32,000 bases of DNA, from assembly GCF_001457615.1 (NCBI RefSeq), contig NZ_LN831024.1, positions 4,620,001 to 4,652,000 on the forward strand, written 5' to 3'. Under the pieces are notes generated by a model, which did not search any database, was not told the origin of the DNA, and saw only the letters and a list, made by a program, of their open reading frames with translations. The position numbers were made by a program, and so were the translations under genes. Shown here in pieces: positions 1-23,656 of this stretch (position 1 is the stretch's first letter; the number at the start of each line of letters is the position of its first letter). The DNA is from Pseudomonas aeruginosa. GTDB lineage: Bacteria > Pseudomonadota > Gammaproteobacteria > Pseudomonadales > Pseudomonadaceae.

Positions 1-337
1 CATCAACGGCCTGCCGGCGGTGACGCTGGGTAGTATCGGGGCGCACGGCAACGTGGTGATCGGCGGCTCGGGGACGGTACTCATCGGCGACGTCTTCACG
101 CCCGCCCCGCGCGCTCCCGCCCTTCCCCTTAACCGCAACAGCGTGCCCTGTTCCGGGCGCTTCCAGCTCATCGACCACGAAACGGGCAAGCCCGTCGCCG
201 GACGCCGGGTCAGGGTCTGGTCGAGTGGCGGCTGGAATGCGTTCGACACCACGGATGCCGACGGCATGACCTCCTGGATCGAGCGCCCCACCGCGGAGAC
301 CCTCTACATCGACCTGGTGCAGAGGGGCGACGCATGA
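1..337 (+). CDS. 3' end of a PAAR-domain T6SS spike-tip protein with a C-terminal transthyretin-like (TTR) extension; the 5' end lies outside the window
   Basis: Frame 2 is open from the window edge. It reads INGLPAVTLGSIGAHGNVVIGGSGTVLIGD, which fits a terminal PAAR repeat pattern. A Pro/Ala linker follows, then a ~60-aa beta-rich block (FQLIDHETGKPVAGRRVRVWSS...TTDADGMTSW) typical of TTR/carboxypeptidase-regulatory-like domains. The stop at 335-337 overlaps the next ATG (ATGA). Confidence 0.6.
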   Translation, partial: INGLPAVTLGSIGAHGNVVIGGSGTVLIGDVFTPAPRAPALPLNRNSVPCSGRFQLIDHETGKPVAGRRVRVWSSGGWNAFDTTDADGMTSWIERPTAETLYIDLVQRGDA

Positions 338-1035
338 GCGACCAGCCCAGCCTGTCCCGGGGAGGCATGAGCCCCGAAGGCAGGACCAACCCCGTCGGCA
401 CTCTGGAATCCAGGCTCGATCCGCAGGACAAGAAGGTGCTGTGCTCGGCGGTCTGCCATTGCAGCAGCACGCCCAACCTCAGCCAGGATGGCAAAAGCCT
501 CAAGCAGGCGTGCGTGGCACAGCGGCTGGGAGAGTTGGACGAAGTTCTCCAGGGACGCAGCCCCTACAAGCCCGAGGTCAGCTACGACATGACCAAGAAC
601 CCACCGCAGCCGATTCTCTATAGCCAGACCGGTAACAGTCCACATGGCTGGATACCGGGATGGATCAGCAAGTATTGGGATGAAGATCCGGAGCATCCGC
701 CGTTCAAGCCAGGGAAAGGAATGATTCGCAGGCCCGACGTGATCATCGTTCAGAATCCCAACAGGCCGCCAACCCAGGACAATATCAAACAGGTGGTGGA
801 GATGAAGTTTCCGCCTGACCCACATAATAGGGAACAACTTGAGGATTATGCAGCGATTGCCGGCAACAAGAACAAGATTGTTGAAATGAAGCCCTCCGAC
901 TGCGACTGTGGCCAGGAAAATCAACGATCCAAGGTGCCAGTAGAGCAAGTAGGGTGGGCCGCCGCCATCGCAGGTGGGGTGATGTTCGTCTTGACCCGAG
1001 GCCGTTCCCCTCGCCCGATGATTCCCGCCTGTTGA
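334..1035 (+). CDS. Putative T6SS cargo toxin with a PD-(D/E)xK restriction-endonuclease-fold / VRR-NUC-like core and a C-terminal hydrophobic helix
   Basis: 233-aa ORF preceded by the RBS-like AGAGGGG and an ATGA overlap with the PAAR-TTR gene. The motif RRPD(135)VIIV...VVE(156)MK(158)F...Q(168)LEDY fits D...ExK...Q of VRR-NUC nucleases. Residues 206-221 (VGWAAAIAGGVMFVLT) are hydrophobic. GC is visibly lower than in flanking core genes. Confidence 0.6.
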   Translation: MSDQPSLSRGGMSPEGRTNPVGTLESRLDPQDKKVLCSAVCHCSSTPNLSQDGKSLKQACVAQRLGELDEVLQGRSPYKPEVSYDMTKNPPQPILYSQTGNSPHGWIPGWISKYWDEDPEHPPFKPGKGMIRRPDVIIVQNPNRPPTQDNIKQVVEMKFPPDPHNREQLEDYAAIAGNKNKIVEMKPSDCDCGQENQRSKVPVEQVGWAAAIAGGVMFVLTRGRSPRPMIPAC

Positions 1036-1051
1036 TCAAGAGGAAAAGCCC

Positions 1052-2140
1052 ATGGAACAGCCATTCGATCTGGCCGCAGAGTTAGCCAAGCAACCCCATC
1101 TGCTGGAAATAGCCGGCAACCTGTTGATGAAGGGCGGCCCCGAAGACTATATCGGTGCAGTGCTTTGCCTACGCGGCACTCTCTACTTCAAAGAGGCCCA
1201 TACCCCTCTGGTACGAGAGTCATTATGCCAATGCTTCGATGAGTTCAAGCGCCTGGCAGAGCCCCACCTCACCCGGCTCTGGCGTGAAGAGCCTGCACAA
1301 GGAAAGCCACTGACCGCATACCGTGACACCCAACCACTGCGCGAGATGATGGGGGCAATGGATGAAGACGATCATCTCAGCTTCTGCTACACCAGCGGCA
1401 AGAAATCCCGCGATGCAGGCGCCTGGCTGTTTGATATTTACGGCAAGCGGAGCTGGCAAGCCAAAATGGGGCATGATCTTAGTGTTCTGGAGTTCTCCGT
1501 ACCTCTGCTATATCAAGAGCAGCAGCCATTGGATTTCCTACAGCTATTTATCGACTTCGCACGTCGACTAGAGCCTGAGCAGGGGTATGCGGGGCATGCC
1601 TACAATCTCTCGCCGACCAGTTGGGACAATGACGAGCCCTCCGAAGCCTTTATGGCGGCGCGTATGCCGGGTTTGGATGTAGGGACGGCTTGTCTGTTGG
1701 CCAATACTCCCGAGTTCAAACCTACAAGAATCAAAACTGTCAGTTGGCTAACCCTCCTGAACAACGAGCGCCTGGCGCTGGCCGGCGGGCTCGATGCCCT
1801 GCGTGCGCAACTGCCCTCCAGCCACTTTGCCTTCTACCGCTACGGCGATGGCGTGGTAATCCAGGCCGGTGCCTATCCCTATATCGCGGGTGATGCGGAA
1901 GACTCCAGGCCCGCTCCGTATGTGCTGCTGAACCACGCGCTCAAAGGCATTCGCTATGAAACCATCGGCTCGCTACACGGCGGCTCACATGACGGCGAAT
2001 TGCGGCTGGTGGGCTGGGCGGCCGATCAATGGCTGAAACGGCTGGATGTGGAAGACAGCGAACTCCCCCGCTGGCGCGACAAATTGCTCAACACTGAGCC
2101 ATGCTTGGACGCGACGAACTCACTGCCGGAGCGCCCGTAG
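1052..2140 (+). CDS. Putative cognate immunity protein (large, cytoplasmic; resembles the DUF3396-type immunity partners of VRR-NUC T6SS toxins)
   Basis: 362-aa ORF starting 16 nt after the toxin stop, with an AGAGGA RBS. It is on the same strand and has the same lowered GC. No signal peptide or TM segment is visible. The assignment rests on position and my recollection of the family, not on a visible catalytic motif. Confidence 0.5.
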   Translation: MEQPFDLAAELAKQPHLLEIAGNLLMKGGPEDYIGAVLCLRGTLYFKEAHTPLVRESLCQCFDEFKRLAEPHLTRLWREEPAQGKPLTAYRDTQPLREMMGAMDEDDHLSFCYTSGKKSRDAGAWLFDIYGKRSWQAKMGHDLSVLEFSVPLLYQEQQPLDFLQLFIDFARRLEPEQGYAGHAYNLSPTSWDNDEPSEAFMAARMPGLDVGTACLLANTPEFKPTRIKTVSWLTLLNNERLALAGGLDALRAQLPSSHFAFYRYGDGVVIQAGAYPYIAGDAEDSRPAPYVLLNHALKGIRYETIGSLHGGSHDGELRLVGWAADQWLKRLDVEDSELPRWRDKLLNTEPCLDATNSLPERP

Positions 2141-2515
2141 GGGCTTACGTTTTCTGGGATCAAAAGTGCTCGCCAAGGCTACACTCCCTATGAGGCGAGC
2201 CTGACAGAAAAAATATCTGCCCCTCACAAGAGTGCTTATAAGCAAGAATTCAACCTATCTAATCGTGCCTTCAATATCACCCAAACAGCATCTATTACTT
2301 ATTATTCAACAACCATCCCTCTTTAATAGATTCGCGACTCGAAACCCAAACTCAAACTTAAAATCTGTCTTCTTTACACCTTACTAAAACTTCTTCAAAC
2401 CCATAAGACCATCTCCATTGGCGTCATTTACTTCTTATCGGCGATATCTAAAACACCTTTAAATTGGAAACAGCTCTAAGGCTTTGAAGTCGAAGAACTG
2501 TCGTAACGAATAGCC
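2141..2515. other. AT-rich (about 35-40% GC by eye) ORF-free block between two convergent 3' ends
   Basis: No ORF of 60 aa or more on any frame. Composition contrasts sharply with the ~66% GC surroundings. It lies between the immunity gene stop (2140) and the antitoxin stop (2516). Confidence 0.7.
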
Positions 2516-2839
2516 TTAGGCGCCCGTCTCTTCGATATCAGCGAAGTTACTGATTTTCACCGCGCCATCCGGGAAGCGTGCAATCACTTCCAGATGGCCG
2601 CCCATGGCTTCGATGTGGCTGCGCAAGGTGGAGATGTACATATCCGTACGCCGCTCCATCTTGGCAATTGCCGGCTGCTGCACCTGCAGCACTTCAGACA
2701 GCATCTTCTGCGACAAGCCTCTAGCCTGGCGCAACTCATTCAGGGGCATTTCAGCCAACAGTTCCTGGGCCTTGGCCTCGACGCGGGCCTGTGCCTCAGG
2801 CGACATTTGCGCCCGAAGGTCGGAGAATTTCTTAGCCAT
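2516..2839 (-). CDS. XRE-family helix-turn-helix antitoxin (HigA-like)
   Basis: 107 aa. The HTH segment LRQARGLSQKMLSEVLQVQQPAIAKMERR is typical of XRE/Cro-type antitoxins. Its ATG overlaps the upstream toxin stop by 8 nt (ATGGCTAA). Confidence 0.85.
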   Translation of the reverse strand: MAKKFSDLRAQMSPEAQARVEAKAQELLAEMPLNELRQARGLSQKMLSEVLQVQQPAIAKMERRTDMYISTLRSHIEAMGGHLEVIARFPDGAVKISNFADIEETGA

Positions 2840-3197
2840 CGATCAGTCCCTCCTCACGGAGCTGGTGCAAGTGTTCGTCATGGAGGCGGTCGGCAATGGG
2901 CACGTTCAATTCGTACCAACGATCATCGCCAGTCTTGTCGCCACCGATCGGCAGTATCGCGGAGCGTCTGGGGTCAAACGCGTAAAGCGTTCGGAAAGGT
3001 CGCCCGCCGTGTTGAGTCCGTAGCTCTCTCATATGGCCAGGGCGGGAGCCATTGATGCCGCTGCTGTGGGGGTGCCCCAAGGATGGCCCCCGCTCCTCAA
3101 GCAAGCGAACCGTCACAGCTAGCGACTCCTGCTCATCCTCGGACAGAGAACCCCACCAATCACCGAACTCGTCGGTGTACTCGATATCCCACGCCAC
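2832..3197 (-). CDS. Type II toxin of the RelE/ParE superfamily (HigB / phage Gp49-like)
   Basis: 121 aa with a GTG start. The pattern HMRELRTQHGGRPFRTLYAFDPRRSAILPIGGDKTGDDRWY matches the Gp49/HigB-type toxin core (ELR..yRvlY.fd....ill.ggdK). The toxin-first gene order is typical of HigBA modules. Confidence 0.8.
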   Translation of the reverse strand: MAWDIEYTDEFGDWWGSLSEDEQESLAVTVRLLEERGPSLGHPHSSGINGSRPGHMRELRTQHGGRPFRTLYAFDPRRSAILPIGGDKTGDDRWYELNVPIADRLHDEHLHQLREEGLIDG

Positions 3198-3213
3198 AAA
3201 ATATAACCCCCAG

Positions 3214-3243
3214 GGAATATTCCATCAAAGGAATCCTACTCAA
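3214..3243 (-). promoter_or_regulatory. Candidate TA promoter/operator: 10-bp palindrome GGAATATTCC plus a related GGAATCC half-site, with a possible TTGAGT-N16-AATATT promoter on the minus strand
   Basis: The palindrome at 3214-3223 lies 17 nt upstream of the GTG start. TTGAGT (reverse complement of 3238-3243) sits at a -35 distance. The hexamers are only moderate matches. Confidence 0.3.
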
Positions 3244-3460
3244 AGAGAGCGCTTCCCGACAACGGACCGAGCGCACGGAGTCCTGAAGACGATCCGGTCC
3301 CAGATGGACGCACCAGGACCCGCGAGGCAGCCTCATTCCGTGTGTCGAAAAAGTGTCGAAATTACTCGCCCATACAGGCCGGCATAGCACAGAGCTTGGC
3401 CCGTCCCCTCCTCTCCAGCCCCAGTCCTGCCCAGCCTTGGCCATTTACCGCCTCCGTCGG

Positions 3461-3772
3461 TTATCGGTGTCTGCGTGCGTATTCCGCCTCGAACAGCGAC
3501 AGCAAGGAGCCGGTGATGCGGCGGTGCTTTCGCCGGTCTTCGGTTTCGTCGAGCAGGTCGAGGACGCTCAGCGTTCCGATCGCCGACTCCAGCCGGCGGC
3601 GGGCGGTGTCGAACAGGTCTTCGCTGGCTGCGCTGCTGTCCAGGTAGAGGGTGGCGCAGCCGGGATGCTGGTTGCATTGCGAGGTGCGTCGCAGGGGGAT
3701 GAAGGTGGAAGGGGACTGTGCGGTGACGGTTTTGCCCGGACAAGGTGCCGCTCCGGCAAGGTGCGAAGCGCT
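3461..3772 (-). pseudogene. Start-less open frame with coding-like composition; possible truncated gene remnant
   Basis: A stop-to-stop minus-strand frame of ~103 codons ending ...DLFDTARRRLESAIGTLSVLDLLDETEDRRKHRRITGSLLSLFEAEYARRHR*. It has high-GC third positions and a helical, protein-like sequence. It has no ATG or GTG, and its only TTG is 11 codons from the stop. Confidence 0.3.
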
Positions 3773-3906
3773 TCACAAAATGCCAAACAGAGGGCGAGCG
3801 CATCCCATCGCCAACACGCAATCGCCTTGAATGGCCGCTTCGATTCCTCGTCATGCGGGGATGCCGTGCCCGGCTCCAGCGCATCGCCACCCACACCGGA
3901 AACCCT

Positions 3907-4179
3907 ATGCCCTACCGCGTTCTCCTGCTCATCCTGGCCCTGACGCCCGCCCTCGCCTCCTCCGCCACCCTGGACGAACGCCTGGGCGACCTTGAACACG
4001 CCTTCAAGCCCGACCTCGACGGGACGACAAGCGCAAAGCCGGCCAGCCCGCCGCCGGAGCGGTTCAAGCTGGCGCCGCTGGGCAGCGTGGTGCGCAAGAA
4101 AGAGTGCGCGACATCGAGCCTACCGGACGAGCAGTCCAGCTGCGCGGCGCTGGAGTTCTGCACGGACTGCGCACAGTAA
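3907..4179 (+). CDS. Small secreted hypothetical protein (90 aa, Sec signal peptide, Cys-rich C-terminus)
   Basis: Internal ATG of the 3745..4179 ORF. MPYRVLLLILALTPALASSATL looks like a signal peptide with an ALA-SS cleavage site. The last 30 residues contain four Cys. The RBS is weak. Confidence 0.45.
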   Translation: MPYRVLLLILALTPALASSATLDERLGDLEHAFKPDLDGTTSAKPASPPPERFKLAPLGSVVRKKECATSSLPDEQSSCAALEFCTDCAQ

Positions 4180-4197
4180 GGTGGAGCGCCGGCAATC

Positions 4198-4623
4198 TCA
4201 CTTGGCGAACAACTGGCCCATGTCGCGGAAGCTCTTGAACTCCAGCGCGTTGCCGCAGGGGTCGAAGAGAAACAGCGTGGCCTGCTCGCCGACCTGGCCC
4301 TTGAAGCGGATGTAGGGCTCGATCACGAAGCGGGTGCCGCGCTGCTGCAGGCGTTCGGCCAGGGCGTGCCAGTCGTCCCATGCGAGGACCACGCCGAAGT
4401 GCGGCACCGGCACGTCGTGGCCGTCCACCGGGTTGCTGCCGACGTGGCGCTGGGAATCGGTCTGCGGATGCTGGTGGATGACCAACTGGTGGCCGAAGAA
4501 GTCGAAGTCGACCCAGTGCTCGGCGGAGCGGCCTTCGCTCAGGCCGAAGACCTCGCCGTAAAAGCGCCGGGCGGCGGGCAGGTCGTGGACGGGGATGGCG
4601 AGGTGGAAGGGCATCAGGCTCAT
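4198..4623 (-). CDS. VOC-family (glyoxalase/bleomycin-resistance/ring-cleaving dioxygenase) protein
   Basis: 141 aa starting from [28 protein letters not shown], a typical VOC N-terminus. The longer 358-aa track ORF is an upstream extension running through the divergent LysR gene. Confidence 0.85.
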
Positions 4624-4723
4624 GGCGCGGTTCCTCTGTGGGTGTGCCGGGATTATTTGCCCTGCCGATTTCGATGGAAAGCGCATAATATTTCGCCTGA
4701 GCAACACTTTTTTCGAGGCTTGG

Positions 4724-5608
4724 ATGATCCGCGAACTCCGCACCCTGGTCGCCGTGGCGCGCCGGGGCTCCTTCGCCGCGGCGGGGGAACAGGTGGGGCT
4801 GACGCAGTCGGCGGTGAGCGCGCAGATCCGCGCGCTGGAACGCAGCGTCGGCGTCGAGTTGTTCAAGCGCACGCCGCGCGCGGCACACCTGAACGAGGTC
4901 GGGAGGCAGGCGGTGCGTACGGCCGAGCAGATCCTCGCGCTGTTCGACGGCATCGGCCAGGGCGACAGCCCGCGCGGACGCCTGCGCATCGGTGCGGTGA
5001 ACACGGCGCAGACCGGGCTGCTGCCGGAGGTGCTCAAGCGCCTCGCCGAACAGGCGCCACACATCGAGCCGCAGGTGGTGCCGGGCGTCTCGCTGCACCT
5101 GCTGGACCAGGTGGACGCCGCCGAACTGGACCTGGCGATCCTCATCCGCCCGCCGTTCAACCTGCCGCGCGGGCTCTCCGCGCAACGGGTCGAGCGCCAG
5201 CCGTTCGTGCTGATCGCGCCGCCGCAATGCACTGCGACGGATGCGCTGGAATTGCTGCGCACGCAACCGTTCATCCGCTACGACCATGTGTCCTTCGGCG
5301 GTCGCCTGGTGGGCGATTTCCTCGAGGCGCAACAGCTCAGGCCACGCCAGGTAATGGAGCTGGATGAGATCGACGCGATCGCGCGGATGGTGGAGAACGG
5401 CCTCGGCGTGGCGCTGCTGCCCCGGGCCGGGCTGTGGCTACGCGAGCCGGCGCGGGTACGGGTGATCGAACTGGGCGCGCTGGAATTCCAGCGCGAGCTG
5501 GTGATGGTCAGCCGCAGCGGTTCGGCGCAGGACGACCTGGTCGGTGAATTCCGCCGCGCCCTGCTGGCCGAGACGGCGGCTCAGGAGGCCGCGCCGACCA
5601 CCGCGTAG
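4724..5608 (+). CDS. LysR-family transcriptional regulator
   Basis: The start at [39 protein letters not shown] is a canonical LysR wHTH. The gene is divergent from the VOC gene across a 100-bp intergenic region. Confidence 0.9.
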
Positions 5609-6534
5609 CGCGGCGCCGGGCGCGCCAGCTCGCCGAGGAAGGTCCACAGGCGTTCGGCCTCGCCGGGTAGCGGCAGGCGGCGACGGATCAGGGTGTAGCG
5701 CAACGGCACGTCGAAGCGCTGGCCGCCGGCGCGCACCAGGCGACGGCTGGCGAGGTCCTCGCGGACCAGGGTATGCGGCAGCCAGGCGACGCCCAGGCGC
5801 GACTGGGCGAAGAAGCGCAGCCCCTCGGTCTGGCTGGAACTGTGATGGCGCTGGAGGAACAGGCCGCTGTCGCGCAGCAGCGGTTCCAGGGCCCAGCCCA
5901 GGTGGCATTCCTCGGAGTAGCCGAGGAACGATAGCGCTTCGGTCTGCAGGCGGTCGAGGTTGAACAGCGGCTGGCCGGCGGCGTCCGGCGCGCAGACCGC
6001 CACCAGTTGTTCGTGGCCAAGCTCCAGGCGCTGGAACTCGGCTTCGCTGTCGATGCCCAGGCGGCGCGACACCGCCTCGCCTTCGTCGAGCAACGCCACC
6101 ACGTAATCCACCGAGCCGTCGCGCAGGCGCGACAGGCATTGCGGCAGGTAATCGCAGTCGACGCTGAACTTGGCGCTGCGGAAGTCCGCCTGCAGGCGCG
6201 GAATCCAGTGCGGGAAGAACACCGAGGAGAGGATGTGCGGGGCGCAGAAACGAATGCGCCGCTGGGCGTCTTCGTCGCGCTCGCGGATCGACTGGCGCAG
6301 GTTGTCCAGGGCGCGCACCGCGTCCTGCGCCACGCCTTGCAACTGGCGGCCGGCCTCGGTCAGTTCGAGGGCGTGCTTGTGGCGCTCGAACACCGGCGCG
6401 CCGAGCCACTGTTCCAGGGTCTGGATACGCCGGCTGAGCCCGGACACGGAGACATGGCACTCCTGCGCCGCACGGCTGAAGCTCTTGATCCGACAGAGGA
6501 CGAGGAAGTCCTTGAGCATCACCAGGTCGATCAT
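5581..6534 (-). CDS. LysR-family transcriptional regulator
   Basis: MIDLVMLKDFLVLCRIKSFSRAAQECHVSVSGLSRRIQTLE is a LysR wHTH. The gene is divergent from the RidA-led cluster. Its 3' end overlaps the convergent LysR gene by 28 nt. Confidence 0.9.
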   Translation of the reverse strand: MIDLVMLKDFLVLCRIKSFSRAAQECHVSVSGLSRRIQTLEQWLGAPVFERHKHALELTEAGRQLQGVAQDAVRALDNLRQSIRERDEDAQRRIRFCAPHILSSVFFPHWIPRLQADFRSAKFSVDCDYLPQCLSRLRDGSVDYVVALLDEGEAVSRRLGIDSEAEFQRLELGHEQLVAVCAPDAAGQPLFNLDRLQTEALSFLGYSEECHLGWALEPLLRDSGLFLQRHHSSSQTEGLRFFAQSRLGVAWLPHTLVREDLASRRLVRAGGQRFDVPLRYTLIRRRLPLPGEAERLWTFLGELARPAPRYAVVGAAS

Positions 6535-6616
6535 CGTTGCGCGTTCCTCAACGGTCGGGCGTTTTCAGTCTACTTCGCGCGGCGGTGCCTGTTGCAAGGC
6601 TAAAGTTCGGTTTGTT

Positions 6617-6631
6617 TTGCCGATTTGGCAA
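6617..6631. promoter_or_regulatory. Candidate LysR box TTGCC-N5-GGCAA
   Basis: The perfect inverted repeat TTGCCGATTTGGCAA lies in the 220-bp divergent region between the LysR gene (start 6534) and the RidA-family gene (start 6755). It fits the T-N11-A architecture. Confidence 0.35.
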
Positions 6632-6754
6632 GCAGCTCGTCGACTCCCGCAAAACAGACCGGGAAAAGCGGCCCACAGTAGTGAGGTCGCGCTTTTCCAG
6701 CCATCGACCCGCCCGAGCATCGTGGCCGGGCGGGTCCGCCACGAGGACAGGACC

Positions 6755-7189
6755 ATGCAGACATCCCCCGCTCCGGCCATCGTCGCCGGCGGCGCCTACC
6801 AGCCGGTGGTGCTCCACGCCGGCATCGCCTACGTCAGCGGCCAGTTGCCACGCCAGCACGGCGAGCTGCGCTGGACCGGCAAGGTCGGCAGCGAACTCGA
6901 CCTGGAACAGGCCCGCCAGGCCGCCCGGCTCTGCGCGGCGCGCTGCCTGCAGGCGCTGGAGGAGGCGCTGGGCGGCCTGCAACGGGTCGAGCGGCTGCTC
7001 AAGGTGACCGGCTACGTCGCCAGCGCGGCGGGTTTCGTCCAGCAGCCGGCGGTGATCGATGCCGCCAGCGAATATTTCGACGAGGTGCTCGGCGCGCGCG
7101 GCGGCCACGCCCGCGCCGCCGTCGGCGTGGCCGAGCTGCCGCGCGGCGCCGCGGTGGAGGTGGAACTGATCGCGGCGGTGCGGCCATGA
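6755..7189 (+). CDS. RidA/YjgF/L-PSP family (reactive enamine/imine deaminase-like) protein
   Basis: 144 aa with IAYVSGQLP and HARAAVGVAELPRGAAVEVELIA motifs, including the conserved Arg of RidA-type members. An RBS GAGGACAGG precedes the ATG. The stop overlaps the next ATG (ATGA). Confidence 0.85.
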   Translation: MQTSPAPAIVAGGAYQPVVLHAGIAYVSGQLPRQHGELRWTGKVGSELDLEQARQAARLCAARCLQALEEALGGLQRVERLLKVTGYVASAAGFVQQPAVIDAASEYFDEVLGARGGHARAAVGVAELPRGAAVEVELIAAVRP

Positions 7190-8433
7190 GCGCGCTCTTC
7201 CCCGCCGCCCCCGACGCCTTCGGTGCCGACGAACTGCTGCGCCTGCGCCGCGAGACCCCGGCCTGGGGCAGCTACGCGCACTTCGCCCATGGCTCCGCCA
7301 GCCTGCCGCCGCAGGTGCTCTACGAGGCCCTCGACAGCTGGCTGGAAGCCGAGCGGCGCTGGGGCGTGCAGCGCGCCGCCGAGCATTTCGCCGAGCCCTT
7401 GCTGGCGGTCCGCGACAGCGTCGCGCGAGTGCTCGGCACCCAGCCACGGCACATCGCCCTGCTCGACTGCGCCAGCCGCGCCTGGTCGGTGGCCTTTGCC
7501 GCGGCCCTGGCCGCCCATCCACGGATACGGGCGATCAGCAGCTTCGACGAATACGGTTCCAACAGCCTGTGCCTGCTCGCCGCGCGCCAGCAGCGCGGGG
7601 TGGAGCTGCGCCTGATCGACGCACGCGGCGACGCCGCACAGCTGTTGCAACGGCTCGACGAGCAGTTGCACGACCTCGCCCCCGGCCAGACGCCGCTGCT
7701 GTCGCTCAGCGCGGTGCCCACCGGGCATGGCGCGGCTACCGCGCTGGAGGGCGTGGCCGAGCGCATCCGCGCCCATGACGGGCTGTTCTTCCTCGATGCC
7801 AGCCATGCGGTCGGCCAGTTGCCGCTGGCGGTGGAGGCGATCGGCTGCGACGTGCTGGTGTTCCCGCCACGCAAGTGGCTGCGCGGGCCAAAGGGACTCG
7901 GCGTGCTCTATCTCGGCGAACGCGCCCTGGAGCGCCTGGCCCTGCCCGACGGGCTGGACGTCGGCGGCGCGCAATGGAGCGACGCCTTCGCCTTGCAGGC
8001 ACGGGATGACGCGCGGCGCTTCGAATGCTCGGAGTTCAACCCGGGGCTGCGCCTGGCGCTCAAGGCCAGTTGCGACTACCTGTTGCAGACCGACGTCCAG
8101 CGCATCGCCCGGCGCAACCGCCAGTTGCGCGAACGCATCGCCCAGCAGCTCTACCGCCGGCTCGGCTGGACGCCGCTGGAACAAGGGCCGCACGCCAGCG
8201 CGTTGATGACCTACGCGGCCCCCGAACTGAGCGGCGAGCAATGGCTGAAGCGCCTCCACGCGCGCGGCGTGAACGCCTCCTACATCGGCCCGCAGTATGC
8301 CCGCTGGGCGCTGCGCGAGCAGGCGCTGCCGGGGGTACTGCGCCTGACTCCGCACTACCTGACCGACGACAGCGAGATCGAGCGCCTCGGCGAGGCCCTG
8401 GAGGATTGCCTGCGACAGCGCGCCGCCAGTTGA
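7186..8433 (+). CDS. Class-V aminotransferase-fold PLP-dependent enzyme (cysteine desulfurase / epimerase / lyase-like)
   Basis: 415 aa. FFLDASHAVGQLPL and PPRKWLRGPKGLGVLY match the class-V D..H and PLP-lysine (sgHKxxGPxGxGxLY) motifs. Confidence 0.85.
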   Translation: MSALFPAAPDAFGADELLRLRRETPAWGSYAHFAHGSASLPPQVLYEALDSWLEAERRWGVQRAAEHFAEPLLAVRDSVARVLGTQPRHIALLDCASRAWSVAFAAALAAHPRIRAISSFDEYGSNSLCLLAARQQRGVELRLIDARGDAAQLLQRLDEQLHDLAPGQTPLLSLSAVPTGHGAATALEGVAERIRAHDGLFFLDASHAVGQLPLAVEAIGCDVLVFPPRKWLRGPKGLGVLYLGERALERLALPDGLDVGGAQWSDAFALQARDDARRFECSEFNPGLRLALKASCDYLLQTDVQRIARRNRQLRERIAQQLYRRLGWTPLEQGPHASALMTYAAPELSGEQWLKRLHARGVNASYIGPQYARWALREQALPGVLRLTPHYLTDDSEIERLGEALEDCLRQRAAS

Positions 8434-8435
8434 GC

Positions 8436-8508
8436 GACCTTGCGCGAATGGCAACGTTGCGCCGCCGTGCCGGCGGTTGGCGCAACGCCGGGCGATTTGC
8501 GCAAGGTC
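8436..8508 (+). repeat. Long nested imperfect inverted repeat (about 73 nt) immediately after the PLP-enzyme stop
   Basis: The outer arms GACCTTGCGCGAAT (8436-8449) and ATTTGCGCAAGGTC (8495-8508) pair over 14 bp with one G-U. The inner arms CGTTGCGCC (8455-8463) and GGCGCAACG (8479-8487) pair over 9 bp. A further GGCAACG-AGC-GTTGCC hairpin follows at about 8520-8535. Confidence 0.55.
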
Positions 8509-8721
8509 TTTGTGCCGGCGGCAACGAGCGTTGCCGAATGCGCCGCGCACGGCCGCCGCCATGCGGTTTAAATCCCTCTCGTAGAACAACGCATAACGAT
8601 CCCGCCAGCGACATCTTTCACCTGCCTGAGACACCGACGACTTTCGACGCCCTGGGCAGCCTTTCGGTCCCCCGCGGACCGCTCCGCCCTCAATGGAATG
8701 ATGAATGGAGGAAAGACGACC

Positions 8722-10017
8722 ATGACCGGATCCCGGAAAACCCTGATTCTCGGATGCGCCTCCACCGGCGCCAAGTTCACCCCGCGCAACCACGCCGCCA
8801 CCGGCGACCGCCTGCTCGACAGCATCTGCACCGGCGCCACCATCCGCACCGCCCCCGGCGAACTGCTGGACGAAGCGCGCCAGCTCTACGAGATGGGTTG
8901 CCGCTACTACCACTATCACGCGCGCAACCCGCTGACCCAGGAACAGACCACCGACAACGACATCTACCAGGCGGTCAGCCGCGCCCTGCAGAACCGCTTC
9001 CCCGACCTGATGTTGAGCTTCGGCGCCAGCCGCAACGGCAGCGAGGTGCAGGAGAACATCCGCCGCTTCGGCGAGTGGGAGCGGGTCAGCCACTGCGCCA
9101 TCCCGCTGCACCTGGGCGGTGCGCACTTCGTGACGATCCAGGCGGCCATCGAATTGCAGGTGATCTGCGAGCTGGAGAAGCAAAGGCGCAAGCTCGACCT
9201 CGACTATGCCTCCAGCCCGGCCTTCCTCGCCGACCTGCGCGACTACCAGCCGTCGACGGCGCTGGAAAAGGCCGAGTTGCAGACCCACTCCACCAGCAAG
9301 GGCGCCGACTACGGGGTGACCTCGCCGATGACCCAGTTCCAGGTCTACCGCAACGCCATCCAGGCGCGCCAGAAGCTCGGCCTGTTCCACGAGGTGGAGT
9401 GGGTGCAGCACGTGCGCAGCTACGCCATGACCCGTTTCGCCGTGGAGCACCCGCGCCTGCGCCTGGGCGGTTCCGGCCAGTTGAACGTGATCCTGCTGTT
9501 CGGCTTCTCGCCACGCCTGCCGTTCCCGGAGACCTACCAGCAGTTCCGCGCGGTGATCGAGAGCGCCAAGAGCCTGGAGTACGATATCGGCGAACCCGGC
9601 GTGCGCAAGCGCAAGGTCAGCATCACGGTCGGCGCGGCGGTGATGCCGCAGCATGCCGCGCAGCACTTCCGGCCGCTCGACGTCGGCCCTCGCGCCGGCA
9701 CCCCGCTCTGCGCGGTGCGCCGGCTGGCCGCCTATGCCGCGCAGGCGGACAGCCAGGTCGACGTGCTGCGGGTCGGCATGGAGGACACGCCCTATGCGGT
9801 GGACGATGACGGCCAGGTGACGCTCAGCGACAACTGCCAGTTGCTGCGCCAGGCTCTCGACGAACTGCGCGCCAACGGCGCCGAGGCCGAGCTCGACGGC
9901 GAACGGATCTTCCAGCGCATGGGCATGGAACGCACCCTCGGCGAATACCTGTCGCTGCAGCGCCTGCATCCGCTCGGCGAAGCCAACTTCACCCTCGCAC
10001 GGGAGTTCGTCCAGTGA
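8722..10017 (+). CDS. BKACE / DUF849 family enzyme (3-keto-5-aminohexanoate cleavage enzyme-like), enlarged variant
   Basis: The series of blocks follows the Kce-family order: LILGCASTGA, YYHYHARNP (HxH), LSFGASRNG, HEVEWV, ILLFGF, RVGMEDTPY (E-D). The start was chosen at ATG 8722, 9 nt after GGAGGA. The track start at 8698 is also possible. Confidence 0.8.
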   Translation: MTGSRKTLILGCASTGAKFTPRNHAATGDRLLDSICTGATIRTAPGELLDEARQLYEMGCRYYHYHARNPLTQEQTTDNDIYQAVSRALQNRFPDLMLSFGASRNGSEVQENIRRFGEWERVSHCAIPLHLGGAHFVTIQAAIELQVICELEKQRRKLDLDYASSPAFLADLRDYQPSTALEKAELQTHSTSKGADYGVTSPMTQFQVYRNAIQARQKLGLFHEVEWVQHVRSYAMTRFAVEHPRLRLGGSGQLNVILLFGFSPRLPFPETYQQFRAVIESAKSLEYDIGEPGVRKRKVSITVGAAVMPQHAAQHFRPLDVGPRAGTPLCAVRRLAAYAAQADSQVDVLRVGMEDTPYAVDDDGQVTLSDNCQLLRQALDELRANGAEAELDGERIFQRMGMERTLGEYLSLQRLHPLGEANFTLAREFVQ

Positions 10018-11261
10018 CCGCCGCCCTCGCCCCGAACCCCACCCAGCGCTACCGCTGGGTCATCCTGCTGATCGCCACCTTCGCCCAGGCCTGCGCCTGC
10101 TTCTTCGTCCAGGGCATCGGCGCGATCGCCGTGTTCATCCAGAACGACCTGCAACTCTCGTCGCTACAGATCGGCCTGCTGGTGTCGGCGGCGCAGCTGG
10201 TGCCGATCGTCGGCCTGCTGGTGGCCGGCGAGCTGCTCGACCGCTACTCCGAGCGGCTGGTGGTCGGCCTCGGCACGCTGATCGTCGCGCTGGCCCTCTG
10301 CGCCTCGCTGTGGGCCACCGACTACCTGACCATCCTGCTGTTCCTGGTGGTCGTCGGCGCCGGCTACAGCACGGCGCAGCCGGGCGGCAGCAAGTCGGTG
10401 TCACGCTGGTTCGCCAAGACCCAGCTGGGCTTCGCCATGGGCATCCGCCAGGCCGGGCTGCCGCTGGGCGGCGCGCTGTCCGCCGCGCTGCTGCCGTACC
10501 TGGCGGGGATCTACGGCTGGCGCAGCGCATTCCTCGCCGGCGGCCTGGTAGCGTTCCTCGGCGCGCTGGCCTTCATGCTCTTCTACCGCACCCCGCCGGA
10601 CGCCCCCGCGCCCGGCGCGAACCCCGCCGAACGCGACCTGGGCGCGGTGGTGAAGTCGCGGCTGGCGATGATCACCGATCCAGCGATGAAGAACATCGTC
10701 TGTTCCGGGGTGGCGCTGATCTCGGTGCAGTACGGCATCCTGGTGTTCACCGTGCTCTACCTGCACGAGACCCTGGAGATCGGCATCGGCATGGCCGCGA
10801 CCCTGCTGTTCGTCGCCCAGGGCAGCGGCGTCGCCGGGCGCATCCTGCTGGCCGCCTGGAGCGACCGCTGCCGCGCCGGGCGCTACTTCCCGGTGATGGT
10901 CTGCCTCGGCGCGGTGATCCTCGGCCTGCTGGCGCTGGTCCTGCTGCCCCTGCAATCGCCGTTGGGGATGGGCCTGGTAGTGGCCTGGCTGGGCTTCTTC
11001 GGCTTCGGCTGGTACGGTCCCTGGGTGGCCTATGTGGCGGATACCGCGCCGGTCGGCAAGACCGGCTTCGCCCTCGGCCTGGCGATGGCCATCAACCAGT
11101 TGGCGATCGTTCTCGCGCCGCCGGCGCTGGGGCTGCTCAAGGACTTCAGCCACAGCTTCGTCCCCGGCTGGCTGGCGCTCTGCCTGATGGCGGCGGTAGC
11201 CCTTGTGGTCACCGCCTGGAGCGGCCGCGGCCTGCCCACCGCGCTGCCACAGAAGCACTGA
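10014..11261 (+). CDS. MFS transporter
   Basis: 415 aa with about 12 hydrophobic spans. An MFS-like loop motif is present (GELLDRYSERLVV). The GTG start overlaps the BKACE stop (GTGA). Confidence 0.9.
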   Translation: MTAALAPNPTQRYRWVILLIATFAQACACFFVQGIGAIAVFIQNDLQLSSLQIGLLVSAAQLVPIVGLLVAGELLDRYSERLVVGLGTLIVALALCASLWATDYLTILLFLVVVGAGYSTAQPGGSKSVSRWFAKTQLGFAMGIRQAGLPLGGALSAALLPYLAGIYGWRSAFLAGGLVAFLGALAFMLFYRTPPDAPAPGANPAERDLGAVVKSRLAMITDPAMKNIVCSGVALISVQYGILVFTVLYLHETLEIGIGMAATLLFVAQGSGVAGRILLAAWSDRCRAGRYFPVMVCLGAVILGLLALVLLPLQSPLGMGLVVAWLGFFGFGWYGPWVAYVADTAPVGKTGFALGLAMAINQLAIVLAPPALGLLKDFSHSFVPGWLALCLMAAVALVVTAWSGRGLPTALPQKH

Positions 11262-11291
11262 AGCGATGACGGCCACGGCCGAGGAGGCACG

Positions 11292-11993
11292 ATGCGCGCG
11301 ATCCTGTTCGATGTGTTCGGTACCCTGGTGGACTGGCGTTCCAGCCTGATCGAGCAGTTCCAGGCGTTGGAGCGCGAACTCGGCGGGACCCTGCCCTGCG
11401 TGGAACTGACCGACCGCTGGCGCCAGCAATACAAGCCGGCGATGGACCGGGTACGCAACGGCCAGGCGCCCTGGCAGCACCTCGACCAGTTGCACCGGCA
11501 GAGTCTCGAGGCCCTGGCCGGAGAGTTCGGCCTGGCGCTGGACGAGGCCCTGCTGCAACGCATCACTGGCTTCTGGCACCGCCTGCGGCCGTGGCCGGAC
11601 ACGCTCGCCGGGATGCACGCGCTGAAGGCCGACTACTGGCTCGCCGCGCTGAGCAACGGCAACACCGCGCTGATGCTCGACGTCGCGCGGCACGCCGGGC
11701 TGCCCTGGGACATGCTGCTGTGCGCCGACCTGTTCGGCCACTACAAGCCCGACCCGCAGGTCTACCTCGGCGCCTGCCGCCTGCTCGACCTGCCGCCGCA
11801 GGAGGTGATGCTCTGCGCGGCGCACAACTACGACCTCAAGGCCGCGCGCGCCCTCGGCCTGAAGACCGCGTTCATCGCCCGGCCGCTGGAATACGGCCCC
11901 GGCCAGACCCAGGACCTCGCCGCCGAGCAGGACTGGGACCTGATCGCCAGCGACCTGCCGGACCTGCACCGGCAACTGGCGGCCTCGGCCTGA
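11292..11993 (+). CDS. HAD-superfamily hydrolase, L-2-haloacid dehalogenase (type II) subfamily
   Basis: [12 protein letters not shown] (nucleophile Asp motif), LSNGN and HYKPDPQVY motifs are present. A GAGGAGG RBS precedes the start. Confidence 0.9.
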
Positions 11994-12099
11994 CCGACTT
12001 CCTCCTTCCTGCCCCCTGAACCGCTCGCCCAACCCGCGCGCCACGGCGCGCCGGGAAAGGCGCGCGCAGCGCCGGCACGCGTCCGGCAGGAGCTTCGTC

Positions 12100-15799: not shown

Positions 15800-16359
15800 G
15801 GATAACCTCGGCGCGGCGATGGAACGGCAATCCTGCCACGCACCGCCGACGCCAGGCCCATAACCTTTGCCCGGTTGGCAGGCGTCCGCCGAAACAAATG
15901 CTCAAACATTCCCGCCGCCGGGGCGACATCTGCTCAAAAAATGTCCTGGCCTTTCTTCGTCGAAAGACATACAATCCGGGACTGCGTACCAAACTGAAAG
16001 TCAATCAGGCTTTACCCCAAGACCGGGCCCACAGATGAAAAGGGCTCTACCATCAGGGTTACAGCCTTCCGATGGTTCTTCGGTCGCCACTCTTCTGAAG
16101 CAATCCCCTGCCAAGCAGGGCCGATGGGAAGACCGGCGTCCCGCAATACCACCCGCAGATTGATCAGGATCCTGGCCTGGAAACTTTCCTGCCAATCGAT
16201 CCTCTGATTAGTACCTGAACTGCCAGCTTGCTCTTTTCGAAAAAAGCCGGCATAACCAGTACGTTCCCCCGACACAAAGCTTTCTTGGCACTGTCACGGA
16301 GCGGGAACATTTGCAATATACGCTGCTCCATAAGCGTGAAAGTAAAGGAACATAAGAAT

Positions 16360-16587
16360 ATGTCTATTCAACATCGTACTCAGGATGCAATTCGCACCCT
16401 AACCGCCGCATTTGCGCCGTTCGACTGCCTGATCCAGGCAACTCGTAAAGGAAACTTCAGTTTCACCATCGTTGACCAGCATGGCGTGGCCTGCCACAGC
16501 GAGCGCCTGTATCCGGAGCAGTACGACGACTCCGGCAAAATGGAAGAAGTGATCAATCGAGTTCGCAAGAAAACACTGGCTGCCTGA
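16360..16587 (+). CDS. Small hypothetical protein (75 aa; possibly the Pseudomonas DUF1652 type)
   Basis: Internal ATG of the 16228..16587 ORF, preceded by AAGGAA. A strong terminator follows. The family name is from memory only. Confidence 0.55.
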   Translation: MSIQHRTQDAIRTLTAAFAPFDCLIQATRKGNFSFTIVDQHGVACHSERLYPEQYDDSGKMEEVINRVRKKTLAA

Positions 16588-16616
16588 ATCATGCAAGCAT
16601 CAGCGCGAATGCAAGG

Positions 16617-20019: not shown

Positions 20020-20312
20020 GGACGCGCTCCGTAGTCGAGGCCGAGCCAGGCCAGGCCGCCCAGCGCCAGGCTGGCCAGCGCCAGCACCCAGCAGGCGCGC
20101 CAGGCGCTGCGCGCGGCGAAGGCGTAGACGATGGCCGCGACCCACACGGCGAAGCAGCCGAGGCTGCCGAACGAGACCCGGTCGGGACGCGGCAGCGGCA
20201 GGTAGATGCTCAGGCAGGCGGTGACCGCATAGGCCAGCGCGTAGCCAAGCAGGACCGCGACGAGGATGCGGCCGGTGACGGACAGTCCGCCGGCCAGGGC
20301 CTGGCTGGTCAT
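20016..20312 (-). CDS. Small membrane protein (DUF3649-like)
   Basis: 98 aa starting from MTSQALAGGLSVTGRILVAVLLGYALAY, with 3 hydrophobic spans. Its stop overlaps the PepSY gene ATG (ATGA). Confidence 0.65.
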   Translation of the reverse strand: MTSQALAGGLSVTGRILVAVLLGYALAYAVTACLSIYLPLPRPDRVSFGSLGCFAVWVAAIVYAFAARSAWRACWVLALASLALGGLAWLGLDYGARP

Positions 20313-20637
20313 GGGGCGGCGTCCCGGGTGGAAACAGGGCCTTGCATCGTCGCTACCTCGTCTGGCTGGCACGGCGACGCCGCGCTCGCGGGTGGCGAGG
20401 CGGTCGTCGATTCGGAAGGTTTGCGACTGTATCTCAATTACGTTCGCATTTGTACTTGCTCCGGACGACCGCCAGGTCGCGTCGCGCCAGGGATTGCCGG
20501 GGTCCGACGAGTGCGGGTCGTATCCCGTCGCATTCGTCCGCCGCGCCATACGTCCATCTCCGCTCTGCGCAAGCGCGCCGAGCTTGGTAATATCGGCTGT
20601 TTGCGGTTTCGGCTGGTCTCGCCGAAGGACATACCGG

Positions 20638-22959: not shown

Positions 22960-22972
22960 GGGCCGCCCGGAT

Positions 22973-23638
22973 TCAGCGCGCGACGCCGCGGTAGACGTAG
23001 GTCATCGGCCGCGGCCCGGGCAGGTAGCCCTGTTCCAGCTCGTCGATGCGAAAGCCGGCCTCGCGCAGCAAGGCCGGCATGTCGCGGTCCAGGTGGCAAC
23101 CGCCGGCCAGCGGTTTCCACCAGGGCGTCAGGCGCCGTTGCCAGGCCAGCACCGAGGCGTCCGGCGCGCGCCCATGCTCGCAGAACAGCAATTCGCCGCC
23201 ACGCTTCAGCACCCGACGCATCTCGCCCAGCGCCGGCAGCGGCGCGGCGATGGAGCAAAGGGTGAAAGTGCAGACGATGGTGTCGAAGCTTTCCGCCTCG
23301 GCGCGGATCTCGCCAAGCTCGAGGGCGACCATTTCCACCGGGATGCCGATTTGCGCCGCGCGCTCGCGGGCCAGCGCCTGCATTTGCGCGGCCGGGTCGA
23401 CGCCGACGATCGCCGACACCTTCGCCGCGTCGTAGAAGCCCAGGTTGAGCCCGGTGCCCAGACCGATCTCCAGCACCCGCCCATGGGCGCGCGGCACCAG
23501 CAGCGAACGCTGCTTCATCACGTCGCCCATGCCGCAGGCGAAGTCGATCAGGCGCGGCAACACGTAACGGTCATAGATGCCCACGAAACTCTCTCCTGGC
23601 ACAGCGGCTGGAGGGGAAAGCATAGACCAGCGATGCAT
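22973..23638 (-). CDS. pmtA: Class I SAM-dependent methyltransferase (PmtA-like phospholipid N-methyltransferase)
   Basis: 221 aa. VLEIGLGTGLN is the SAM-binding motif I. IYDRYVLPRLIDFAC and LKRGGELLFCEH are also present. The start is at 23638 or, alternatively, ATG 23623; neither has a clear RBS. Confidence 0.75.
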   Translation of the reverse strand: MHRWSMLSPPAAVPGESFVGIYDRYVLPRLIDFACGMGDVMKQRSLLVPRAHGRVLEIGLGTGLNLGFYDAAKVSAIVGVDPAAQMQALARERAAQIGIPVEMVALELGEIRAEAESFDTIVCTFTLCSIAAPLPALGEMRRVLKRGGELLFCEHGRAPDASVLAWQRRLTPWWKPLAGGCHLDRDMPALLREAGFRIDELEQGYLPGPRPMTYVYRGVAR

Positions 23639-23644
23639 TAGACG

Positions 23645-23656
23645 ATTGTCGACAAT
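23645..23656. promoter_or_regulatory. Perfect 12-bp palindrome ATTGTCGACAAT, a candidate GntR-family (PrpR) operator
   Basis: It lies in the divergent pmtA-like/prpR intergenic region and fits the GT-N-AC core of FadR-subfamily GntR operators. It is 7 nt from the pmtA-like ATG. Confidence 0.5.

What the first reader, a model, noticed from the sequence alone, without database searches (positions are those of the whole stretch)
1..2140. Split PAAR-TTR / VRR-NUC-like cargo toxin / large immunity module: a probable uncharacterised T6SS effector-immunity system
The window opens inside a gene whose tail reads as a terminal PAAR repeat followed by a TTR-like beta domain. TTR extensions are known as cargo-docking adaptors on PAAR tips. 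Its stop overlaps (ATGA) the start of a 233-aa ORF with a clean D135 / E156-x-K158 / Q168 PD-(D/E)xK arrangement of the VRR-NUC type. A 362-aa cytoplasmic ORF follows 16 nt later. Both downstream genes have visibly lower GC than the core genes and end at an AT-rich scar, so the module looks like an acquired cassette. As I recall, VRR-NUC T6SS toxins were described in Salmonella as PAAR-like-fused effectors with DUF3396 immunity. Here the nuclease is a separate cargo behind a PAAR-TTR, and I know of no experimental work on this Pseudomonas version.
Basis: partly seen in the sequence, partly recalled or inferred. Interest (0 to 1): 0.8.

Follow-up and report, generated by a model that had tools for sequence, protein, structure and literature searches.

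The report
Known Pseudomonas PAAR2–TseV–TsiV toxin module

Summary
A PAAR gene tail (2-337) overlaps by ATGA a 233-aa ORF (334-1035). A 362-aa ORF (1052-2140) follows 16 nt later. Both downstream genes have lower GC, and an AT-rich spacer comes after them.

The functional reading is also right:
- The 233-aa protein passes Pfam VRR_NUC, and D135, E156, K158 and Q168 are invariant in 62 homologues.
- The 362-aa protein is a strong Pfam TsiV/DUF3396 match and is about 97% identical to PDB 7DRG, "PA0821" of P. aeruginosa.
- The PAAR C-terminal domain models as a beta-sandwich whose best PDB match is the cargo-docking TTR domain of E. coli VgrG1.

The novelty claim is wrong. This is the P. aeruginosa PAAR2 island with TseV (PA0822) and TsiV (PA0821), named by Wang et al. 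2021 (FEBS J 288:5755). Hespanhol 2022 placed it in the TseV clade. Robinson 2023 used it in prey-sensitisation competitions. Habich 2025 classed it as an accessory H2-T6SS effector.

- The PAAR-TTR/TseV/TsiV order is conserved in 59 of 77 species loci.
- The variable segment ends at window 3446.
- This allele carries Y at the near-invariant D96.

Verdict: already known, low interest.

The parts
2..337 (+). 3' end of the PAAR2 gene. It encodes the last 111 of 172 codons: the final PAAR repeat (about aa 62-92 of the full protein), a Pro/Ala-rich linker and a C-terminal TTR-like beta-sandwich of about 62 aa.
   Evidence: Translation is. The full 172-aa gene was recovered from a locus 99.9% identical to the window (L001 9486-10004). 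It matches PAAR_motif at E 3.4e-19. The AF2 model of window 128-334 has pLDDT 86.7 and is all-beta. Its best PDB match is the VgrG1 chain of the VgrG-Tle1 complex, 6sjl_A (TMq 0.71, rmsd 1.2 A).
334..1035 (+). tseV, a 233-aa VRR-NUC / PD-(D/E)xK cargo effector. It has the catalytic D135, E156-x-K158 and Q168. It also has six near-invariant or invariant Cys (37, 41, 43, 60, 190, 192) and a C-terminal hydrophobic helix (about 205-221) followed by an RGRSPRPMIPA tail.
   Evidence: Pfam VRR_NUC scores 24.0 bits against a cut-off of 23.8. All 62 of 62 homologues match, best E 1.2e-9. The AF2 core has pLDDT above 82. Sources name it 'VRR-NUC domain-containing protein [P. aeruginosa]'.
1052..2140 (+). 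tsiV, a 362-aa DUF3396/TsiV immunity protein and an allele of PA0821.
   Evidence: Pfam TsiV (PF11876) matches at E 3.7e-89. It aligns with PDB 7DRG 'PA0821' at E 2.9e-245, with 350 of 361 residues identical.
2141..2515 (.). AT-rich (40.5% GC) spacer between tsiV and the convergent HigA-like gene. No convincing terminator, repeat or RNA family was found in it.
2516..3197 (-). A HigB-like toxin (Gp49/DUF891, 2832..3197) and a HigA-like HTH antitoxin (2516..2839) that overlap by 8 nt. They lie in the same strain-variable segment but are not part of the T6SS module.
   Evidence: Pfam Gp49 matches at E 1.8e-17 and HTH_37 at E 3e-9. The pair is absent, together with the PAAR2 island, from the island-less strain L005.
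3446..3447 (.). Right-hand boundary of the strain-variable segment. From 3447 onward the window aligns at 99.6% with a strain that carries restriction-modification genes in place of the island.
   Evidence: blastn of the window against L005 aligns 3447-12000 only.

Best explanation
The region is the 3' two-and-a-half genes of the P. aeruginosa PAAR2 island: PAAR2, TseV (PA0822) and TsiV (PA0821).

PAAR2 is a small PAAR cone that caps a VgrG spike. The literature assigns it to the H2-T6SS. It carries a C-terminal transthyretin-like domain. TseV is a separate 233-aa cargo protein that is translationally coupled to PAAR2.

The following steps are inferred. TseV rides on the spike tip by binding the PAAR2 TTR-like domain. 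It is fired into neighbouring bacteria and there acts as a metal-dependent VRR-NUC (PD-(D/E)xK) nuclease, using D135, E156 and K158. By analogy with Salmonella TseV3 it would cut branched DNA structures and cause double-strand breaks. TsiV (DUF3396) protects the producer and its kin by binding TseV and occluding its DNA-binding face.

Shown here: gene order, family memberships, catalytic-residue invariance, near-identity to the crystallised PA0821, the TTR-like fold, and conserved three-gene synteny. Taken from the literature: the effector and immunity naming, the H2-T6SS assignment, and accessory-island status. Inferred only: TTR docking, nuclease substrate, and mode of inhibition.
For: Identity:
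- TsiV is 350/361 identical to PDB 7DRG 'PA0821'.
- Both proteins occur exactly in P. aeruginosa assemblies, annotated as VRR-NUC and DUF3396.
- The downstream window carries the prp operon, an SNF2 helicase and other core genes, with no other T6SS gene, as expected for an orphan island.

Families:
- VRR_NUC is above the gathering score, and 62/62 homologues match.
- TsiV matches at E 3.7e-89.
- PAAR_motif matches the full upstream gene at E 3.4e-19.
- D135, E156, K158 and Q168 are invariant in 62 sequences down to 51% identity.

TTR:
- The AF2 model has pLDDT 86.7.
- The top PDB match is the VgrG1 chain of the VgrG-Tle1 complex (prob 1.00, TMq 0.71), followed by macroglobulin MG domains, transthyretin and HIU hydrolase.
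- Some homologues give sub-threshold Pfam hits to CarboxypepD_reg, Big_1 and SpaA.

Linkage:
- In 59 of 77 species loci (Pseudomonas, Halomonas, Oxalobacteraceae, Burkholderia/Paraburkholderia, Xanthomonas and others) the ORF ending -4 to +124 nt from the TseV start (within +68 nt in all but L023) matches the PAAR-TTR profile. In 54 of them it matches over both halves.
- TsiV follows in 74 of 77 loci.

Literature:
- TseV(PA0822)/TsiV(PA0821) is listed as a putative VRR-NUC nuclease pair of the H2-T6SS.
- The PAAR2 island contains tseV and tsiV and is missing in 44% of CF isolates.
- It is an accessory H2 effector in a PAAR island.
Against: - Foldseek of the TseV model against the PDB gave no significant hit (best E 0.15). 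FAN1, PaFAN1 and 4QBL VRR-NUC hits appear only at E about 1, over 53-69 columns.
- A family profile found no PDB sequence.
- The Pfam score of this allele is only 0.2 bits above the cut-off and covers only profile positions 61-105.
- The TTR Foldseek E-value is 0.14, which is expected for a small domain, and no Pfam TTR family passes threshold.
- I could not read Wang et al. 2021. Later authors still call the P. aeruginosa TseV 'putative', and it was not among the most potent H2 toxins.
- This allele has Y at position 96, where 57 of 62 homologues have D.
Confidence: 0.9

Rival explanations
1. The module is correctly identified, but TseV is not carried by the TTR-like domain. It would bind the PAAR cone, a VgrG or an unlinked adaptor, and the TTR extension would serve another role, such as choosing the spike.
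For: No interaction was tested here. The TTR fold match is structural only. PAAR proteins with similar extensions are widespread in Pseudomonas, and at least some of them have diverged C-terminal domains and presumably other cargos.
Against: PAAR-TTR and TseV are tightly linked, often with a 4-nt overlap, across Gamma- and Betaproteobacteria. The TTR part diverges in step with TseV, while the PAAR cone stays conserved among paralogues. The nearest solved structure is a TTR domain that docks a cargo effector.
Confidence: 0.15
2. In this strain the toxin allele is attenuated or inactive (D96Y at a near-invariant position, Y233C at the C-terminus). The cassette would then be kept mainly for the immunity gene, as protection against TseV-armed kin.
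For: Position 96 is D in 57 of 62 homologues, and the only two Y are this lineage. D96 alleles (for example P0018, on more than 1000 contigs) coexist with Y96 alleles in P. aeruginosa. TseV showed weak potency in competitions. tseV is lost more often than gained.
Against: The ORF is intact, with all catalytic residues and all six conserved Cys. The Y96 lineage is common, on about 500 or more contigs, which does not look like decay. The role of D96 is unknown, and I could not inspect model coordinates.
Confidence: 0.1
3. The pair is not a T6SS effector and immunity pair. It would instead be an intracellular toxin-antitoxin or anti-phage nuclease module that merely sits beside a PAAR gene.
For: The segment also holds a HigBA-like TA pair. 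In other strains the same site holds restriction-modification genes. VRR-NUC domains are of phage and repair origin. More distant relatives, in Sorangium and others, lack an upstream PAAR.
Against: The PAAR-TTR/TseV/TsiV synteny is conserved in 59 of 77 loci. PADLOC was not run, and nothing seen here points to a defence role. DUF3396 is an experimentally shown T6SS immunity family, and Salmonella TseV2/3 are secreted by a T6SS. The literature treats TseV as an H2-T6SS effector.
Confidence: 0.03

Closest known systems
P. aeruginosa PAO1 PAAR2 cluster: PAAR2, TseV (PA0822), TsiV (PA0821; PDB 7DRG). Wang et al. 2021, FEBS J 288:5755
   Same: It is the same locus in the same species. TsiV is 350/361 identical to the 7DRG sequence. 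The gene order and the domains (PAAR, VRR-NUC, DUF3396) are the same. The genomic neighbourhood is also consistent: the prp operon lies 22-30 kb away.
   Different: The differences are allelic only. TsiV has 11 substitutions, clustered at the C-terminus. TseV carries Y96 and C233, where other P. aeruginosa alleles have D96 and Y233. I could not obtain the PAO1 PA0822 sequence or read the paper. The locus tag PA0824 for PAAR2 is from my memory only.
Salmonella bongori TseV2/TseV3-TsiV (Hespanhol et al. 2022, eLife, PMC9635880)
   Same: Both have a VRR-Nuc PD-(D/E)xK toxin with a DUF3396 immunity gene directly downstream. The P. aeruginosa TseV falls in the same TseV/Plu1493 clade, and PA0821 is the top structural match of TsiV3.
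   Different: In Salmonella the nuclease is fused to an N-terminal PAAR-like (DUF4150) domain, making an 'evolved' effector. Here it is a stand-alone cargo behind a PAAR-TTR. The Pseudomonas protein adds a Cys-rich N-terminal region and a C-terminal hydrophobic, Pro-rich tail. Structure-specific Mn2+-dependent cleavage has been shown for TseV3 only.
EAEC VgrG1 TTR domain docking the Tle1 lipase (PDB 6SJL)
   Same: It is a small transthyretin-like beta-sandwich at the C-terminus of a spike component that holds a separately encoded cargo effector. It is the best structural match of the PAAR2 C-terminal domain.
   Different: There the TTR sits on VgrG, not on PAAR, and the cargo is a phospholipase rather than a nuclease. 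Sequence identity is 22% over 55 columns. Docking by the PAAR2 TTR was not tested here.
FAN1 / PaFAN1 / psNUC (4QBL) VRR-NUC repair nucleases
   Same: They share the Pfam family and the D...ExK catalytic motif. They give weak, recurrent Foldseek matches over the beta2-beta3-alpha2-beta4 core.
   Different: None of these hits is statistically significant (E about 1). The biological role is also different: DNA repair and phage replication rather than interbacterial killing.

Membership tests
VRR-NUC (Pfam PF08774; PD-(D/E)xK superfamily) | Sequence match to the family model at or above the curated gathering score | tested here: met
   The match is 24.0 bits against a cut-off of 23.8, E 4.1e-5, aa 130-178. 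All 62 aligned homologues match, best E 1.2e-9. The margin for this allele is thin.
VRR-NUC (Pfam PF08774; PD-(D/E)xK superfamily) | Catalytic D ... (D/E)-x-K triad on beta2/beta3, with a conserved Q on alpha2 | tested here: met
   D135, E156, K158 and Q168 are present and invariant in 62 of 62 sequences. In the AF2 model they fall at strand 136-139, strand 151-157 and helix 166-176.
VRR-NUC (Pfam PF08774; PD-(D/E)xK superfamily) | [quoted passage not shown] | tested here: inconclusive
VRR-NUC (Pfam PF08774; PD-(D/E)xK superfamily) | Metal-dependent nuclease activity | not testable with these tools
   This needs biochemistry. Later papers still call the P. aeruginosa TseV 'putative'.
TsiV / DUF3396 T6SS immunity (Pfam PF11876) | Full-length match to the family model | tested here: met
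   E 3.7e-89, 299 bits, profile positions 2-271 of 271.
TsiV / DUF3396 T6SS immunity (Pfam PF11876) | Orthology to a characterised member | tested here: met
TsiV / DUF3396 T6SS immunity (Pfam PF11876) | Encoded directly downstream of its cognate VRR-NUC toxin, and neutralises it | tested here: inconclusive
   Adjacency is met: the gap is 16 nt here, and TsiV is downstream in 74 of 77 related loci. Neutralisation cannot be tested with these tools.
PAAR spike-tip protein (Pfam PF05488) | PAAR motif repeats forming the cone | tested here: met
   The window holds only the last repeat, and Pfam finds nothing in the 111-aa fragment. The full 172-aa gene from a 99.9% identical locus matches PAAR_motif at E 3.4e-19.
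TTR-like (transthyretin/prealbumin-like) cargo-docking extension | Transthyretin-like beta-sandwich fold | tested here: met
   The AF2 model has pLDDT 86.7 and five or more strands. The top Foldseek match is the chain of 6SJL_A annotated as VgrG1 bound to Tle1 (prob 1.00, TMq 0.71, rmsd 1.2 A), followed by MG domains, transthyretin and HIU hydrolase. The E-value is only 0.14 because the domain is small. No Pfam family passes threshold.
TTR-like (transthyretin/prealbumin-like) cargo-docking extension | Physically binds the cargo effector | not testable with these tools
   Only indirect support is available: conserved adjacency of PAAR-TTR and TseV in 59 of 77 loci.
T6SS cargo effector-immunity pair | T6SS-dependent delivery and immunity-dependent protection | not testable with these tools
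   Literature only. The pair is listed as H2-T6SS, and tseV-tsiV deletion prey were tested in S10 Fig of PMC10281587. It is classed as an H2 accessory effector.

The most novel reading that the evidence does not exclude
Cargo-type TseV proteins carry features absent from the fused Salmonella TseVs, and no paper I could read describes them. One is six invariant or near-invariant cysteines (C37, C41, C43, C60, C190, C192), possibly a metal site. The other is a conserved C-terminal tail: a hydrophobic, glycine-zipper-like helix plus RGRxPRPxxPA(Y/F), which in Burkholderia is replaced by a purely Pro-rich tail. This tail could be the element that docks into the PAAR2 TTR domain. It could also be what carries the nuclease across the prey inner membrane. 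Separately, the common Y96 lineage could be a naturally attenuated toxin.
Probability: 0.15. Interest if true: 0.4.

Novelty: already known. Interest (0 to 1): 0.1.

Why it matters
It matters little as a discovery. The locus, its name, the immunity crystal structure, its T6SS assignment and its population distribution are all published. Its use here is as a clean positive control, since a tool-free reading of raw sequence recovered a real T6SS effector-immunity module correctly.

Some modest questions remain open, as far as the papers I could read show:
- whether P. aeruginosa TseV has been shown to be a nuclease, and with what substrate;
- whether the PAAR2 TTR-like domain is the docking site;
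- what the conserved C-terminal tail and the Cys cluster do;
- whether the Y96 allele is fully active.

Tried and rejected
- Foldseek of the TseV model against the PDB gave no significant hit.
- A family profile of TseV against PDB sequences gave only chance hits to response regulators and Elongin-B. phmmer of TseV against the PDB found nothing.
- NCBIfam has no model for any of the three proteins.
- Pfam on the PAAR tail alone gives nothing. Across 51 homologues there are only sub-threshold hits to prealbumin-like families.
- I looked for mobility signatures around the cassette. There are no tRNA genes, no Rfam families and no meaningful direct or inverted repeats. Promoter and terminator matches do not exceed shuffled expectation. 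I therefore dropped the idea of a defined att or IS-bounded element.
- Wang et al. 2021 is not in the held library, so its experiments are known to me only through citing papers.
- The GTDB species scan did not return a P. aeruginosa locus, so I could not align PAO1 PA0822 directly.
- I considered a TA or defence reading of the pair and rejected it on synteny and literature grounds.
Full report
**Observation.** The window opens inside a + strand gene that ends at 337. A 233-aa ORF occupies 334..1035 and a 362-aa ORF occupies 1052..2140. The stop of the first gene and the start of the second share ATGA, and the next gap is 16 nt. Residues 135, 156, 158 and 168 of the middle protein are D, E, K and Q. 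GC is 58.4% and 57.9% for the two downstream genes, against 68.8% for the PAAR tail and 67.1% for the window. GC3 is 71% and 66% against 87.5%. A 40.5% GC spacer follows at 2141-2515.

**Family assignments.** Pfam gives VRR_NUC for the 233-aa protein at 24.0 bits, just over the 23.8 cut-off, over aa 130-178. It gives TsiV ("Type VI immunity for VRR-NUC", formerly DUF3396) for the 362-aa protein at E 3.7e-89. NCBIfam has no model for either. The thin VRR_NUC margin is backed by the family. All 62 aligned homologues, down to 51% identity, match VRR_NUC, with a best E of 1.2e-9. D135, E156, K158 and Q168 are invariant in all 62.

**Identity of the locus.** Both proteins occur with exactly these sequences in many P. 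aeruginosa assemblies, named "VRR-NUC domain-containing protein" and "DUF3396 domain-containing protein". The immunity ORF aligns end to end with PDB 7DRG, whose molecule name is "PA0821". The E-value is 2.9e-245, and 350 of 361 residues are identical. The rest of the window carries LysR regulators, a glyoxalase, RidA, an aminotransferase, an SNF2 helicase and the prpB-prpC-acnD-prpF genes. It carries no other T6SS gene. That fits an orphan island in the P. aeruginosa chromosome.

**What the literature already says.**
- Robinson et al. [quoted passage not shown] They say PAO1 has the best-annotated version, citing Wang et al. 2021, and that the island is missing from 44% of CF isolates and is a target of insertion and recombination.
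- The PLoS Pathogens 2023 study lists TseV (PA0822) and PA0821 as a putative VRR-NUC nuclease pair among H2-T6SS toxins. It built tseV-tsiV deletion prey for competitions. TseT and PA5265, not TseV, were the most potent.
- Habich et al. 2025 class tseV as an accessory H2-T6SS effector in a PAAR island. They infer it was present in the species' common ancestor and has been lost more often than gained.
- Hespanhol et al. 2022 place the P. aeruginosa TseV in the same clade as Salmonella TseV2/3 and kept the name TseV for that reason.
- Wood et al. 2019 group PAAR2 with the H2-associated PAARs.

I could not read Wang et al. 2021 itself. What it showed experimentally is known to me only through these citations.

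**The PAAR-TTR claim.** The window holds only the last 111 codons of the upstream gene. A locus 99.9% identical to the window supplies the whole 172-aa protein, which matches PAAR_motif at E 3.4e-19. Its C-terminal 69 residues were modelled with 50 homologues. The model is confident (pLDDT 86.7) and all-beta. The best PDB match is chain A of 6SJL, the VgrG1 spike bound to the Tle1 effector (probability 1.00, TMq 0.71, rmsd 1.2 A over 55 columns). Next come alpha2-macroglobulin MG domains, transthyretin and 5-hydroxyisourate hydrolase. E-values are weak (0.14) because the domain is small. Pfam gives only sub-threshold hits to CarboxypepD_reg, Big_1 and SpaA in a few homologues. I accept "TTR-like fold" as supported. 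That it docks TseV remains an inference.

**Conserved synteny (the one thing I can add).** A scan of one genome per species found 77 loci encoding TseV relatives. In 59 of them the ORF ending -4 to +124 nt from the TseV start (within +68 nt in all but L023) matches a PAAR-TTR profile, and in 54 it matches over both halves. About 20 of them have the same 4-nt overlap. TsiV is found downstream in 74 of 77. The hosts include Pseudomonas, Halomonas, Massilia, Duganella, Janthinobacterium, Caldimonas, Burkholderia, Paraburkholderia and Xanthomonas. The most distant relatives (Sorangium and others, at most 40% identity) keep TsiV but lack the PAAR-TTR. The three-gene unit is thus an old, mobile module. 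The tight coupling of TTR and TseV is the best available indirect support for docking.

**The cassette.** A P. aeruginosa strain lacking the island aligns with the window only from 3447 onward, at 99.6% identity. Upstream of that point it instead carries a DNA methylase, an Mrr-type endonuclease, Vsr and an Ea47-like gene. The variable segment therefore spans at least window 1-3446. It includes a convergent HigB-like (Gp49) and HigA-like (HTH_37) pair at 2516-3197. I found no tRNA, IS end, flanking repeat or RNA family. That agrees with Habich's suggestion of exchange by homologous recombination of the flanks.

**Mechanism.**
- Shown here: the gene order, the families, the invariant catalytic residues and the near-identity to PA0821.
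- From the literature: effector and immunity status, and assignment to the H2-T6SS.
- Inferred: TseV binds the PAAR2 TTR domain and is fired with the spike. In prey it acts as a metal-dependent structure-specific nuclease like TseV3, which is Mn2+-dependent and cleaves splayed arms. TsiV blocks its DNA-binding face as TsiV3 does.

**Residual oddities.**
- This allele has Y96 where 57 of 62 homologues have D. It ends in C where Y or F is usual. Both D96 and Y96 alleles are common in P. aeruginosa.
- Cargo-type TseVs share six conserved cysteines and a C-terminal hydrophobic helix followed by RGRxPRPxxPA(Y/F). In Burkholderia this tail is replaced by a Pro-rich tail.
- A second allelic class exists in P. 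aeruginosa, with TseV at about 79-81% identity and PAAR2 at 76%.

None of these changes the verdict.

**Verdict.** The functional interpretation is correct and the novelty claim is wrong. The module is already known, and interest is low.

Noticed in passing
window 2516-3197 (- strand): A type II toxin-antitoxin-like pair sits convergent to tsiV. It is a Gp49/DUF891 (HigB-like, 121 aa, 2832..3197) followed by an HTH_37/XRE (HigA-like, 107 aa, 2516..2839), overlapping by 8 nt. It lies inside the same strain-variable segment as the PAAR2 island.
   Followed up: partly
window 3446/3447; L005 9180-16426: An island-less P. aeruginosa strain is collinear with the window only from 3447 onward. At the same site it carries a DNA methylase, an Mrr_cat/AspBHI-like endonuclease, Vsr and a lambda Ea47-like gene. 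The site is therefore a hotspot that swaps a T6SS island for restriction-modification genes.
   Followed up: partly
window 619-621 (TseV codon 96) and 1030-1032 (codon 233): This TseV allele has Y96 where 57 of 62 homologues have D, and a C-terminal Cys where Y or F is usual. Y96 and D96 alleles both circulate widely in P. aeruginosa. The functional consequence is unknown.
   Followed up: partly
window 940-1032 (TseV aa 203-233); also aa 37-60 and 190-192: The C-terminal tail is conserved: a hydrophobic Gly/Ala-rich helix, then RGRSPRPMIPA(Y/C). Six cysteines are invariant or near-invariant. In Burkholderia homologues the hydrophobic helix is replaced by a Pro-rich tail. None of the papers I could read describes these features.
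   Followed up: partly
proteins P0052, P0056, P0058 (TseV) and P0151 (PAAR2): P. aeruginosa also carries a second, divergent allelic class of the module, with TseV at about 78-81% and PAAR2 at about 76% identity to this one. It may correspond to the second-site copy (RGP28) reported in two CF isolates.
   Followed up: no
L001 8096-9312 (just upstream of the window's left edge): Two small genes precede PAAR2 in all three strains examined: a 212-aa protein with no family match and a 111-aa TM2-domain membrane protein. Whether they belong to the PAAR2 cluster is unknown.
   Followed up: partly
window 16000-16600: There is a local GC dip to 52%. It holds a small ORF (16228..16587, 119 aa from the first TTG) with no Pfam match, lying between a DoxX-like membrane ORF region and an aldo/keto-reductase-like gene.
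   Followed up: no
window 20266-31981: These are ordinary core genes: an SNF2-family helicase, a methyltransferase, and the propionate catabolism genes prpB, prpC, acnD and prpF. This is consistent with the PA079x-PA082x region of P. aeruginosa.
   Followed up: partly
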